Positions 8,839-11,800 of a stretch of 64,000 bases of DNA are shown here, one piece after another. The stretch is from assembly GCF_044324875.1 (NCBI RefSeq), contig NZ_CP172185.1; one strand, written 5' to 3'. A program made the position numbers. Numbering within the stretch: the stretch's first letter is position 1; each line of letters opens with the position of its first letter. This DNA comes from Escherichia coli (lineage in GTDB: Bacteria; Pseudomonadota; Gammaproteobacteria; Enterobacterales; Enterobacteriaceae).

Positions 8839-11800
8839 TTAAGACTTACTTCTTTGGCGACGGTCGGTTGTGCGCTCTGATGCTTTCGCGCCTCGGCAGC
8901 CGCTTCCTCAACAGGAATATCCTCAAAGCCGAGCAACAGTGTGAGGATAAACGACAGCACCACCGCCAGCGCCATGACCGCGAACACCCAGACGATGCTC
9001 ATTGGATTCGCCGGATCGAAGAACTGCACGCTGGTAAATAGCCCCGGCGCTGCCATTGAGTGGCTGGCAAGCCCCGCCATACCGGCAACCGCGCCGCAAA
9101 TAAAACCGCTGATAAGACTGGCGATAAGCGGACGTTTCAGGCGGATCGCCACGCCATATAACGCCGGTTCGGAAATCCCCGCCATAATGGCTGATGCCGC
9201 CGCAGCCAGCGCCGTCTGGCGCAGTTCCGGGTTTTTCGTTTTCCACGCCACCGCCAGTGATGAACCGCCCAGCGACAGGTTAGCGCCGATCTCTGACGGC
9301 ATGACCATCCCTTCTTTGCCGGTTTCGGCAATGGTCTGAATGATGGTTGGCGTAAAGACGCGGTGCATCCCGGTCATTACCAGCAGAGGCCACAGCGCGC
9401 CCATAATGGCGACTGAAAGCCAGCCCAGATAACCATGAATGGTGTAAACCAGCGCCGAAATGGCGCTACCGATCCAGATACCAATCGGGCCAATCAGCAG
9501 GATTGCCAGCGGTGCGGCAATCAACACAATCAGCATTGGCTTGAGGAAGTTTTTAGTCACCGCCGGTGTAATGCTGTCCACCCAGCGTTCGATATATGAC
9601 AGGCACCAGGTCATCACCAGCGCCGGGATCACTGTGTAGGTGTATTTCACCGCGGTGACCGGGATCAGGGCAAATTCGACATGTTCACCCTGGGCCGCTT
9701 TCGCCATTAATTCAATAAAACTCGGATGTACCAGCACACCCGCGATGGCAATCGCCAGCGACATATTGGTTTTAAATTTGATGGCGGCAGATGCCGCGAC
9801 CATTAGCGGCAGGAAGAAGAAAGCACCGTCACCAATCACATTCAGAATGGTTAAGGTCGGCGATCCTTTTGTCAGCACGCCGCTCATCTCGAGGATCATC
9901 GCCAGCAGTTTGACCATCGATCCGCCGATAATCGCCGGGATCAGCGGTGACATGGTGCCGATCAGCGCATCGAGGATCCCCGCACCTATGCGACGTAGCG
10001 TAAGTTTGGGTTTACCCACGGGCTGTGCGGGCTGCATATCTCCCGGCAGCAGGCTGACGACTTCCTGAAAGGCTTGTGAAACGGTATTGCCGATAATCAC
10101 CTGACACTGGTTGTCACTACGTACCACGCCGAGCACGCCGGAGATGGTTTTCAACGTCGGACTGTCGATAAGCTGGTCATCTTTGATAACAAAGCGCAAA
10201 CGCGTCATACAGTGCGTGACTGCCGAGATGTTATCAACGCCGCCCAGTGCCGCTATCACCGAGCGTGCCAGCGCCGCATAATTTTTGGCCATCGGATTTT
10301 ATCCTGTTATCAGTAGGGTAGATGTAGTTGTTATCAGTCGACGTGACGGAAAAATGCCGATGCTGAAACGGAATTAGGAAACCGGTTTCACAAAATCATG
10401 AATAGTTGTCACTAAATAAGCAAGAGAGTTAATTGTTCATTTTTTATATTTGTGAAACCGGTCACCTGAATATTTTTCCCGCCGATTGCGCAAGGACAAT
10501 CGGCAAACGGTGCAGTACACTGCGTTGATTGCGTGTAAAGGGATGAAAATGACGACGACGATGCTGGAAGTGGCGAAGCGCGCCGGGGTTTCAAAAGCGA
10601 CCGTTTCCCGCGTGCTTTCAGGTAATGGCTACGTCAGCCAGGAGACTAAAGATCGCGTGTTTCAGGCGGTAGAAGAGAGCGGTTACCGTCCAAACTTGCT
10701 GGCGCGCAATCTGTCGGCGAAGAGTACTCAGACGCTGGGGCTGGTCGTGACCAACACACTTTACCACGGCATTTATTTTAGTGAATTACTCTTTCATGCC
10801 GCGCGAATGGCGGAAGAGAAAGGGCGACAGTTGCTATTGGCAGATGGTAAACACAGCGCCGAAGAAGAGCGCCAGGCGATTCAGTATCTGCTGGATTTGC
10901 GCTGCGACGCCATTATGATTTACCCGCGTTTTTTAAGTGTGGATGAGATCGATGACATCATTGACGCGCACAGTCAGCCGATAATGGTGCTTAATCGCCG
11001 CCTGCGCAAAAATAGCAGCCATAGCGTCTGGTGCGATCATAAACAGACCAGCTTTAACGCCGTGGCAGAGTTGATAAACGCCGGACATCAGGAGATTGCT
11101 TTCCTTACCGGCTCGATGGATTCCCCCACCAGCGTTGAACGTCTTGCCGGGTATAAAGACGCGCTGGCGCAGCATAGTATTGCGCTCAATGAAAAACTTA
11201 TCGCTAACGGTAAATGGACGCCCGCCAGCGGGGCCGAAGGGGTAGAAACGTTGCTCGAACGTGGGGCTAAATTTAGCGCGTTAGTTGCCAGTAACGACGA
11301 TATGGCGATAGGTGCGATGAAAGCGTTACACGAGCGCGGCGTAGCGGTGCCAGAGCAGGTGTCAGTTATCGGATTCGATGATATCGCTATTGCCCCCTAC
11401 ACCGTTCCGGCTCTCTCCAGCGTAAAAATTCCGGTGACTGAGATGATTCAGGAAATTATTGGACGGCTGATTTTTATGCTCGATGGCGGGGATTTCTCAC
11501 CGCCGAAAACCTTCAGCGGAAAATTGATCTGCCGCGACTCACTCATTGCCCTTTCGCGATAAACATTGTCATCACATGTCATCGTCACTAGTGTCGATGA
11601 CATCGTTTTTCCTGCATTGCAGAATTTAATTTCTTTAAATAACAGTAAATTAAAAACTGGCATGATTTGTGAATGTATCGGCGCATTAACTGTCATTGCT
11701 GGAGAATTTGATGAACCGTTTCATCATTGCTGACGCGAGTAAATGTATTGGTTGCCGTACCTGTGAAGTGGCGTGCGTGGTTTCTCATCAGGAGAATCAG

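What the first reader, a model, noticed from the sequence alone, without database searches (positions are those of the whole stretch)
11576..11603. 28-bp near-perfect palindrome upstream of hydN
ATGTCATCGTCACTAGTGTCGATGACAT is symmetric at 13 of 14 positions and sits just after the ascG stop, about 105 bp upstream of hydN and about 55 bp upstream of a weak sigma54-like -24/-12 element. Its length and position fit an upstream activator site for an enhancer-binding protein. The hydN-hypF operon is reported to be formate/FhlA-responsive, so this may be the FhlA site, but I cannot confirm the FhlA consensus from memory.
Basis: inference. Interest (0 to 1): 0.4.

Follow-up and report, generated by a model that had tools for sequence, protein, structure and literature searches.

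The report
FhlA enhancer site upstream of hydN
The 28-bp palindrome is real and is the deeply conserved upstream activator (enhancer) site of the sigma-54 promoter of the E. coli hydN-hypF operon, almost certainly bound by the formate-sensing activator FhlA, so it is an ordinary element of an operon already known to be FhlA-dependent.

Summary
ATGTCATCGTCACT|AGTGTCGATGACAT sits at 11576-11603 with 13 of 14 symmetric pairs. It is the only such palindrome in the window; about 0.01 is expected by chance.

The window is E. coli, gene order hyc-ascBFG-hydN-hypF-norVW/R. The "weak" sigma-54 element at 11657-11673 is identical to a published sigma-54 ChIP-seq site for hydN.

Across 80 Enterobacteriaceae species the arms TGTCATCGTCA-N4-TGWCGATGACA are nearly invariant (about 2 bits per column). 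The 4-bp centre and both flanks are free to vary. The site stays with hydN when ascG is absent. Its distance to the -24 GG is quantised at 59-62 or 69-72 bp, one helical turn apart.

The inner core CGWCA-N4-TGWCG recurs upstream of fdhF and hyfA in K-12. The 11-bp half-site recurs in the conserved hycA-hypA enhancer block of other genera. These are FhlA-dependent promoter regions. The promoter-proximal 30 bp, including an IHF-like site, nearly duplicates the hycA promoter.

Best explanation (0.85): the FhlA upstream activating sequence of hydN-hypF. FhlA binding itself was not tested, and two published FhlA consensus strings score the site poorly. An additional role as the ascG terminator in Escherichia is possible but is not the conserved function. 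Novelty: already known. Interest: low.

The parts
11576..11603 (.). 28-bp palindrome as reported. The conserved core is 11577-11602: TGTCATCGTCA-CTAG-TGTCGATGACA.
   Evidence: Conserved in 79/80 species.
11577..11587 (+). Left arm TGTCATCGTCA, made of two YGWCA pentamers (TGTCA, CGTCA).
   Evidence: About 1.8-2.0 bits per column in 81 sequences. Its reverse complement TGACGATGACA is the majority form of the right arm.
11588..11591 (.). 4-bp central spacer CTAG. Its sequence varies between species; its length is fixed.
   Evidence: Columns -2..+1 carry 0.5-1.1 bits. The length is always 4.
11592..11602 (+). Right arm TGTCGATGACA, consensus TGWCGATGACA. The T at 11594 is the one asymmetric position.
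   Evidence: The same 11-mer is found exactly in the hycA-hypA intergenic enhancer block of Klebsiella, Raoultella and Pseudocitrobacter.
11583..11596 (.). Inner core CGTCA-CTAG-TGTCG (CGWCA-N4-TGWCG), shared with the K-12 fdhF and hyfA upstream regions.
   Evidence: fdhF has CGTCAAAACTGACG and hyfA has CGACACGGGTGTCG.
11568..11574 (+). Auxiliary upstream half-site GTCATCA (family consensus GTCGTCA), a third direct YGWCA pentamer.
   Evidence: Columns -22..-16 carry about 1.0-1.7 bits.
11640..11652 (+). IHF-like site TAACAGTAAATTA (11/13 to WATCAANNNNTTR), immediately upstream of the -24 element.
   Evidence: It sits at the same offset (-18 from TGGC) in the example species printed. Over the 50 nt upstream of TGGC the consensus is matched perfectly in 13 sequences and with 1 mismatch in 25. 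It is nearly identical to the sequence upstream of the hycA promoter.
11657..11673 (+). Sigma-54 promoter CTGGCATGATTTGTGAA. The -24 GG is at 11659-11660. The -12 region GTGA lacks the consensus C.
   Evidence: Identical to sigma-54 ChIP-seq site OS26 (hydN) in PMC4591121. Also a gSELEX RpoN site between hydN and ascG. The Salmonella hydN equivalent is listed.
11711..12238 (+). hydN coding sequence (175 aa), the first gene of the regulated hydN-hypF operon.
11560..11562 (+). ascG stop codon, the upstream boundary of the intergenic region.

Best explanation
The palindrome is the upstream activating sequence (enhancer) of the sigma-54-dependent hydN-hypF promoter.

Proposed mechanism:
- An oligomer of the formate-responsive enhancer-binding protein FhlA binds the inverted repeat TGTCATCGTCA-N4-TGWCGATGACA. 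The repeat consists of four YGWCR pentamers, with a fifth just upstream.
- The site is centred about 70 bp upstream of the -24 GG, roughly -94 from the predicted start site.
- With formate bound, FhlA hydrolyses ATP and contacts the closed sigma-54 holoenzyme complex at 11657-11673 by DNA looping.
- Looping is probably helped by IHF at 11640-11652.
- The result is open-complex formation and transcription of hydN-hypF together with the rest of the formate regulon.

Shown here: the site is real, sequence-specifically conserved, linked to hydN, helically phased to a verified sigma-54 promoter, and built from the same motif as other FhlA-controlled upstream regions.

Inferred: that FhlA is the protein, the oligomer/pentamer assignment, the looping, and the IHF involvement.
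For: 1. Conservation. 79 of 80 species-level hydN loci from Enterobacteriaceae carry the repeat with <=3 mismatches, most with 0-1. The arms carry about 2 bits per column. The centre and the sequence immediately outside fall to about 0-0.5 bits.
2. Sequence is conserved, not pairing. 7 of 14 pairs never vary. The W position is left unpaired (T/T) in 22 of 72 distinct sequences.
3. Linkage to hydN, not ascG. The site is present where ascG is absent: Salmonella, E. albertii and asc-less E. coli, where homology resumes at 11557. All 120 exact metagenomic occurrences lie upstream of hydN: 119 sit 108-128 bp before a hydN start, and one contig ends too soon to show the gene. The 41-bp region is present in 5425/5426 complete E. 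coli genomes.
4. A real sigma-54 promoter lies 70 bp downstream.
5. Spacing to the GG is 59-62 bp (31 loci) or 69-72 bp (49 loci) and never 63-68. Both classes occur within Raoultella and within Kosakonia. The K-12 fdhF core lies 80 bp from its GG.
6. Motif sharing. CGWCA-N4-TGWCG occurs exactly in the K-12 fdhF and hyfA upstream regions and only once elsewhere in the window. The half-site TGWCGATGACA occurs exactly in the conserved hycA-hypA block of 3 genera and with 1 mismatch in several others. In 64 kb of window it has 2 exact hits (the palindrome's own arms) and 9 one-mismatch hits. The E. coli hyc-hyp segment TGTCGATGATGTCG is 12/14 identical to hydN TGTCGATGACATCG.
7. The 30 bp upstream of the -24 element nearly duplicates the hycA promoter, including the IHF-like site.
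8. Literature. hydN-hypF expression is enhanced by formate-FhlA (PMC11841067). In the Salmonella sigma-54 regulon study it is listed with FhlA as its activator, shows a 13-fold sigma-54-dependent signal on the microarray, and has a sigma-54 ChIP site (PMC3844500).
Against: - No binding or mutational data for this exact sequence could be read. The primary papers (Maier 1996, Schlensog 1994, Leonhartsberger 2000, Skibinski 2002) are not held.
- The published 14-column FhlA matrix scores the palindrome at most 7.0 of 17.1, while the window has 105 hits >=8.
- The published 16-mer CATTTCGTACGAAATG gives no window within the palindrome among the best matches, which reach only 9/16 elsewhere in the region. 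Both descriptors also score the K-12 fdhF upstream region poorly (8.1, and 9/16), so they are weak tests.
- The E. coli hyc-hyp region has no exact CGWCA-N4-TGWCG core.
- Another enhancer-binding protein with similar specificity, such as HyfR, is not excluded by sequence alone.
Confidence: 0.85

Rival explanations
1. The palindrome is, or also is, the Rho-independent terminator of ascG. The transcript folds into a hairpin followed by CGUUUUUCC.
For: As RNA the palindrome folds at -13.6 kcal/mol, z = -2.4, with 2/200 shuffles folding as well. A 5-U run starts 2 nt after the stem, directly downstream of the ascG stop. The T run is kept in Escherichia lineages that carry ascG and is lost in E. 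albertii, which lacks ascG.
Against: The terminator scan did not call it. Only 20 of 80 species have >=5 T in 8 after the repeat, although most of them have ascG upstream. The arms are invariant in sequence rather than covarying, and the W pair is often left unpaired. The element persists, with its T run, in asc-less E. coli where the upstream gene is on the other strand. It also persists in Salmonella without ascG. At most this is a secondary, Escherichia-specific role.
Confidence: 0.15
2. It is the enhancer for a different sigma-54 activator, such as the FhlA paralogue HyfR or the neighbouring NorR, rather than FhlA.
For: The hyfA upstream region carries the same core, CGACACGGGTGTCG. norR lies 6 kb away in the window. 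The arms contain GT-N7-AC, the loose NorR consensus quoted in PMC4987338.
Against: The three NorR sites in the window are GTCA-N3-TGAC units, for example AGTCAAAATGACTA. That spacing differs from the arms, and the GT-N7-AC matches in hydN use non-conserved spacer bases. The literature assigns hydN-hypF to FhlA. From my own knowledge, not tested here, Salmonella has no hyf/hyfR, yet it keeps the palindrome.
Confidence: 0.06
3. It is an operator for AscG (LacI/GalR family) or another non-enhancer regulator acting on ascG or hydN.
For: It lies right after ascG, and palindromes are typical repressor operators.
Against: A LacI-type palindrome GGAAACCGGTTTCA sits where an AscG operator is expected, in the ascF-ascG intergenic region at 10377-10390. 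The query motif came from my memory of the AscG box. The hydN palindrome has no central CG or TGNAA..TTNCA pattern. It is retained in genomes without ascG. Its phasing follows the sigma-54 promoter.
Confidence: 0.03
4. It is a chance or neutral palindrome, for example a relic of recombination at the asc insertion junction, with no function.
For: About 0.7 such palindromes are expected by chance per E. coli-sized genome (my arithmetic). It lies 10-20 bp from the asc indel junction at 11557.
Against: There is near-invariance across 80 species while both flanks are saturated with changes. The distance to the promoter is quantised. The association with hydN is exclusive in 120 metagenomic hits.
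Confidence: 0.01

Closest known systems
FhlA upstream activating sequence of fdhF (E. coli)
   Same: It has an inverted-repeat core, CGTCA-AAAC-TGACG, of the same form as hydN CGTCA-CTAG-TGTCG. It lies upstream of a sigma-54 promoter at a distance (80 bp to the GG) that differs from the hydN classes by whole helical turns. Its formate/FhlA dependence is taken from the literature.
   Different: The outer pentamers are arranged differently: TCGTCA abuts CGTCA with no 1-nt gap, and the right side is shortened. fdhF therefore lacks the 11-bp half-site TGWCGATGACA. I could not read which fdhF bases were footprinted.
FhlA enhancer block in the hycA-hypA intergenic region
   Same: It contains the same half-site. 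TGTCGATGACA is present exactly in Klebsiella, Raoultella and Pseudocitrobacter. E. coli has TGTCGATGATGTCG, which is 12/14 to the hydN sequence. The hycA promoter-proximal 30 bp with its IHF-like site is nearly identical to that of hydN.
   Different: The half-sites are arranged as direct or everted repeats with other spacings, not as one 26-bp perfect inverted repeat. The block serves divergent promoters. The E. coli copy has no exact CGWCA-N4-TGWCG.
NorR enhancer sites of norVW (same window, about 17397-17455)
   Same: They are binding sites for a GAF-domain sigma-54 activator and are short GTC...GAC dyads upstream of a -24/-12 promoter.
   Different: They are three separate 11-bp units, GTCA-N3-TGAC. 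The hydN arms are 9-bp GTCGATGAC units nested in a larger dyad, which implies a different protein specificity.
Classical NtrC/NifA-type enhancers with an IHF-assisted loop
   Same: The architecture is dyad-symmetric activator sites about 70-130 bp upstream of a sigma-54 promoter, an IHF-like site in between, and face-of-the-helix dependence. The latter is suggested here by the 10-11 bp quantisation.
   Different: The recognition sequence is different. The IHF-like site here abuts the -24 element rather than lying midway.

Membership tests
FhlA-dependent UAS of the formate regulon | Lies tens to about 130 bp upstream of a sigma-54 (-24/-12) promoter. | tested here: met
   The centre at 11589.5 is 70 bp upstream of the GG at 11659-60. 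The promoter sequence is identical to the published sigma-54 ChIP-seq site.
FhlA-dependent UAS of the formate regulon | The downstream operon is activated by FhlA and formate. | not testable with these tools
   Literature only: PMC11841067, and PMC3844500 and PMC4987338 citing Maier et al. 1996.
FhlA-dependent UAS of the formate regulon | Shares its recognition sequence with other FhlA-controlled upstream regions (fdhF, hyc-hyp, hyf). | tested here: met
   The core CGWCA-N4-TGWCG is exact in K-12 fdhF and hyfA. The half-site TGWCGATGACA is exact or 1 mismatch off in the conserved hyc-hyp block of 5 of the 7 non-E. coli genera examined. Window background is 2 exact hits (the palindrome's own arms) and 9 one-mismatch hits in 64 kb.
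FhlA-dependent UAS of the formate regulon | Matches the published FhlA matrix TGWC-RAWRAT-GWCA (13 sites, PMC7658346). | tested here: not met
   The best score in the palindrome is 7.0 of 17.1, while the window has 105 hits >=8. The hyc-hyp site scores 16.1, but fdhF scores only 8.1, so the matrix is a poor discriminator.
FhlA-dependent UAS of the formate regulon | Matches the 16-mer CATTTCGTACGAAATG (PMC4987338, citing Leonhartsberger 2000). | tested here: inconclusive
   No window inside the palindrome is among the best matches, which reach 9/16 elsewhere in the hydN region. The hyc-hyp and fdhF regions also reach only 9/16, a level found 304 times in the window.
FhlA-dependent UAS of the formate regulon | Physical binding by FhlA (EMSA or footprint). 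| not testable with these tools
   The primary papers are not held, and no ChIP or DAP data were found.
FhlA-dependent UAS of the formate regulon | Conserved with the target gene across Enterobacteriaceae.
   79/80 species. 120/120 metagenomic occurrences are adjacent to hydN or cut by a contig end.
Rho-independent terminator | A stable G+C-rich hairpin immediately followed by a U tract. | tested here: inconclusive
   The hairpin folds at -13.6 kcal/mol and 5 U follow after a 2-nt gap. It was not called by the terminator scan.
Rho-independent terminator | The structure and the U tract, rather than the sequence, are conserved downstream of the terminated gene. | tested here: not met
   A U-rich tail is present in only 20/80 species. 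The arms are invariant in sequence, and the element is present without ascG.
LacI/GalR-type operator (AscG) | A 14-16 bp dyad with a central CG, dependent on the presence of the cognate repressor gene. | tested here: not met
   There is no such pattern in the palindrome. A LacI-type dyad lies at 10377-10390 instead. The palindrome is kept in ascG-less genomes.
NorR enhancer | GTCA-N3-TGAC (GT-N7-AC) units like those upstream of norV. | tested here: not met
   The spacing differs: the arms are GTC-GAT-GAC. GT-N7-AC is matched only by using variable spacer bases.

The most novel reading that the evidence does not exclude
The hydN site is the most symmetric natural FhlA site, and it indicates that the real recognition unit is the 11-bp TGWCGATGACA (two YGWCR pentamers one base apart). 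The consensus strings now quoted for FhlA do not capture this unit.

The enhancer-promoter distance has repeatedly jumped by exactly one helical turn during enterobacterial evolution.

The two positions flanking the invariant arms change in concert to keep dyad symmetry. This points to quasi-palindrome template-switch homogenisation, or to some hairpin/cruciform or terminator role, acting on top of protein binding.
Probability: 0.3. Interest if true: 0.35.

Novelty: already known. Interest (0 to 1): 0.2.

Why it matters
It confirms, from sequence comparison alone, where the formate regulon's activator acts on hydN-hypF. This is the operon that supplies HypF, a maturase needed by all [NiFe] hydrogenases, and the ferredoxin-like HydN.

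The practical gains are modest:
- A cleaner half-site (TGWCGATGACA) and core (CGWCA-N4-TGWCG) for annotating FhlA sites than the published matrix or 16-mer.
- Clear evidence of helical-phase constraint (59-62 or 69-72 bp).
- A well-defined, highly symmetric fragment for FhlA-DNA structural or biosensor work.

It does not change the understanding of the system.

Tried and rejected
- Primary papers. Maier 1996, Schlensog 1994, Leonhartsberger 2000 and Skibinski 2002 could not be read. Full-text searches for the site sequence, for "FhlA binding site", or for ChIP/DAP data on FhlA gave nothing usable.
- Published FhlA matrix and 16-mer consensus. Both score the palindrome poorly, but they also score the fdhF upstream region poorly, so I did not treat them as refuting.
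- Sigma-70 promoter reading. One 9/12 match, ATGACA-17-CAGAAT at 11597-11625, is no more than the shuffled expectation (1 found, 1.2 expected), and the -10 part lies in non-conserved sequence. Rejected.
- Known RNA family. No Rfam match at E<=1 in 11300-11900.
- AscG operator and NorR site. Rejected on motif and on distribution.
- GlrR-type TGTC-N10-GACA. The spacing does not fit (sequence inspection).
- The second core hit at 3909 lies inside hycE coding sequence and was treated as chance.
- fdhF orthologous upstream regions from other genera were not collected.
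Full report
**What is there.** The window is E. coli chromosome, 97-99.8% identical to RefSeq genomes over the test segment, with ascG and hydN annotated under the match. Gene order around the finding is hycB'-hycI, ascB and ascF (minus strand), ascG (plus strand, stop at 11560-62), hydN (11711-12238), hypF, norW/norV (minus strand) and norR. The sequence at 11576-11603 is exactly as reported. It forms a 14+14 nt inverted repeat with no gap and one non-symmetric pair, T11585/T11594. K-12 MG1655 has the identical sequence. It is the only palindrome of that quality in the window, and none appeared in 60 Markov simulations. By my arithmetic about 0.01 is expected per window and about 0.7 per genome, so the statistics of the palindrome alone do not prove function.

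**The promoter it would serve.** This string is listed verbatim as a sigma-54 ChIP-seq site assigned to hydN, flagged as previously confirmed, in PMC4591121. A gSELEX RpoN site is mapped between hydN and ascG in PMC8743547. The Salmonella hydN promoter TGGCACGATTCGTGTATA was bound by sigma-54, and the operon showed a 13-fold sigma-54-dependent signal, in PMC3844500. A sigma-54 promoter needs an enhancer-binding protein. PMC11841067 states that hydN-hypF expression is enhanced by formate-FhlA, and the Salmonella papers assign FhlA to it, citing Maier et al. 1996.

A scan of one genome per species with HydN returned 80 loci from Escherichia, Salmonella, Citrobacter, Klebsiella, Raoultella, Enterobacter, Kluyvera, Kosakonia, Lelliottia, Trabulsiella, Cedecea and other genera.
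- In 79 of them TGTCATCGTCA-N4-TGWCGATGACA is present with at most 3 mismatches, usually 0 or 1. The 80th keeps the inner core CGTCA-AAAG-TGTCG.
- Anchored on the centre, the arm columns carry about 1.8-2.0 bits, the four central bases 0.5-1.1 bits, and the sequence beyond the right arm about 0-0.4 bits.
- A further element, GTCGTCA, is conserved at -22..-16. In E. coli it is GTCATCA at 11568-11574.
- The element follows hydN, not ascG. Salmonella and E. albertii have unrelated sequence upstream yet keep it.
- In about 12% of complete E. coli genomes ascBFG is replaced by three small genes, and homology resumes at window 11557, 10 bp before the conserved block. Those strains carry a perfect 14/14 palindrome.
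- The 41-bp region is found in 5425 of 5426 complete E. coli genomes: identical in 4752, with about one difference in 674.
- An exact-pattern scan of metagenome contigs gave 120 hits. Of these, 119 lie 108-128 bp upstream of a hydN start, and one is cut by the contig end.

**Protein site or hairpin?** Seven of the 14 pairs never vary, so they say nothing about pairing. The variable W position is left as T/T in 22 of 72 distinct sequences and is A/T-swapped in three. That pattern fits sequence-specific recognition of two equivalent half-sites, not selection for a stem.

As RNA the E. coli sequence would fold at -13.6 kcal/mol (z = -2.4), and a five-U run follows two bases after the stem. A secondary role as the ascG terminator in Escherichia therefore cannot be excluded. 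Three observations argue against it as the conserved function. The terminator scan did not call it. A T-rich tail follows the repeat in only 20 of 80 species, although most have ascG upstream. The element persists where no plus-strand gene precedes it. No Rfam family matches the region.

**Phasing.** The distance from the palindrome centre to the centre of the -24 GG is 59-62 bp in 31 loci and 69-72 bp in 49, with none at 63-68. One further value is a mis-hit of the promoter pattern. Both classes occur within Raoultella and within Kosakonia, so one-turn indels have happened more than once. The fdhF core in K-12 lies 80 bp from its GG. Quantisation by about 10-11 bp is what a looping activator that must face the polymerase predicts.

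**Is the protein FhlA?** The primary binding papers are not in the library, so I compared the site directly with other FhlA-dependent promoters.
- The inner core CGWCA-N4-TGWCG occurs exactly in the K-12 fdhF upstream region (CGTCAAAACTGACG) and in the hyfA upstream region (CGACACGGGTGTCG). It also occurs once upstream of hydN in 79 of the 80 hydN loci. In the 64-kb window it occurs only at the palindrome and once inside hycE, with 0.38 expected.
- I retrieved hycA-hypA intergenic regions from seven other genera through HycA homologues. They share one conserved block, ATGTCGATGA(T/C)G(A/T)CGAAATGACATGTCG, about 80 bp upstream of the hyc sigma-54 promoter.
- The hydN half-site TGWCGATGACA is found exactly inside that block in Klebsiella, Raoultella and Pseudocitrobacter, and with one mismatch in Enterobacter and Lelliottia and at second sites in Klebsiella and Raoultella. 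The whole window has only the two palindrome arms as exact hits, plus nine one-mismatch hits.
- The E. coli hyc-hyp segment TGTCGATGATGTCG is 12/14 identical to hydN TGTCGATGACATCG.
- The 30 bp upstream of the hydN -24 element (CTTTAAATAACAGTAAATTAAAAACTGGCAT) is almost the same as the hycA promoter (CTTTAATAACAATAAATTAAAAGTTGGCAC). It contains an IHF-like WATCAANNNNTTR match that sits at the same offset in the example species checked.

**Tests that failed.** The published 14-column FhlA matrix (PMC7658346) gives the palindrome at most 7.0 of 17.1. It gives the hyc-hyp site 16.1 and the fdhF region 8.1, and the window has 105 hits at or above 8. The 16-mer quoted in PMC4987338 reaches at most 9/16 in the hydN, hyc-hyp and fdhF regions, a level found 304 times in the window, and none of the best hydN matches lies in the palindrome. 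I report these as "not met" and "inconclusive". They seem to describe one arrangement of the pentamers, that of the hyc-hyp site, rather than the family.

**Other candidates.** The NorR sites in this window (AGTCAAAATGACTA, GGTCGATATGACAA, AGTCAAATTGACAG) have a different internal spacing. A LacI-type dyad suited to AscG lies in the ascF-ascG spacer at 10377-10390 (the motif came from my memory). A sigma-70-like match overlapping the right arm is at chance level, and its -10 lies in unconserved sequence.

**Mechanism proposed.** FhlA is reported as a tetramer whose C-terminal helix-turn-helix binds one face of the DNA (PMC11291172). I propose that it occupies the four pentamers TGTCA-t-CGTCA / TGWCG-a-TGACA and perhaps the fifth upstream pentamer. 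The outer pair of pentamers is 21 bp apart and the inner pair 9 bp apart, so they lie roughly on one face. This is inference. Formate-activated ATP hydrolysis then remodels the sigma-54 closed complex 70 bp away through a loop, probably bent by IHF at 11640-11652.

**What is shown and what is not.** Shown: the site, its conservation, its linkage to hydN, its phasing, and the shared motif. Inferred: the identity of the protein, its stoichiometry, and the IHF role.

**Left unexplained.** The two positions just outside the invariant arms change together so that dyad symmetry is kept. At pair 14 there are C:G 38, A:T 7 and G:C 4 among 72 distinct sequences, and one lineage also switched pair 13. 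No shuffle out of 500 reaches the observed covariation, but relatedness is not controlled. Templated (quasi-palindrome) mutation, or a weak structural role, could account for it.

**Verdict.** The finding is correct, and it describes the regulatory site of an operon already known to be FhlA-dependent. Novelty: already known. Interest: low.

Noticed in passing
window 11575-11576 / 11603-11604, and alignment A2 columns 6-7 / 34-35: The positions flanking the invariant arms co-vary across genera so that the palindrome stays symmetric (pair 14: C:G 38, A:T 7, G:C 4). One lineage also changed pair 13 from T:A to C:G. A plain protein-binding model does not predict this. It may reflect quasi-palindrome template-switch mutation.
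   Followed up: partly
L007-L086, region between the palindrome and TGGC: The enhancer-to-promoter distance falls into two classes one helical turn apart (59-62 or 69-72 bp, none at 63-68). Both classes occur within Raoultella and within Kosakonia.
   Followed up: yes
L094 (NZ_CP124353.1) 1568-2727; junction at window 11557: About 12% of complete E. coli genomes lack ascBFG and carry three small genes instead (a hypothetical, an HTH-domain protein, a hypothetical). The junction lies 10 bp upstream of the conserved enhancer. These strains have the perfect 14/14 palindrome (TCGACA in the left arm).
   Followed up: partly
window 11628-11663 versus L002 1283-1320 (K-12 hycA promoter): The 30 bp upstream of the hydN -24 element is nearly identical to the corresponding part of the hycA promoter, including an IHF-like site. 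This suggests a shared or duplicated promoter module.
   Followed up: partly
window 3909-3922: A second exact match to the FhlA-like core CGWCA-N4-TGWCG (CGTCACTTCTGACG) lies inside the hycE coding sequence. It is probably chance (0.38 expected per window).
   Followed up: no
window 17327-17455: The norV-norR intergenic region shows three NorR-type dyads (AGTCAAAATGACTA, GGTCGATATGACAA, AGTCAAATTGACAG) and the norV sigma-54 promoter on the minus strand (TGGCACGCAATCTGCA).
   Followed up: partly
window 10377-10390: A LacI-type palindrome GGAAACCGGTTTCA lies in the ascF-ascG intergenic region, with a weaker copy at 10453-10466. It is the likely AscG operator.
   Followed up: no
window 60925-60952: A 12/14 palindrome, TATCTGCCCCGTTTTAGCGGGGCAGATA, with a G+C-rich stem lies just past the stop of a 750-aa minus-strand ORF (60963-63215). 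It looks like that ORF's intrinsic terminator.
   Followed up: no
L004 1506-1519 (K-12 hyfA upstream): The hyfA upstream region holds a second dyad, TGATCAAGATCACA, 30 bp upstream of the CGACACGGGTGTCG core. The published FhlA matrix prefers it (score 9.9). It is unclear which dyad is used by FhlA or HyfR.
   Followed up: no
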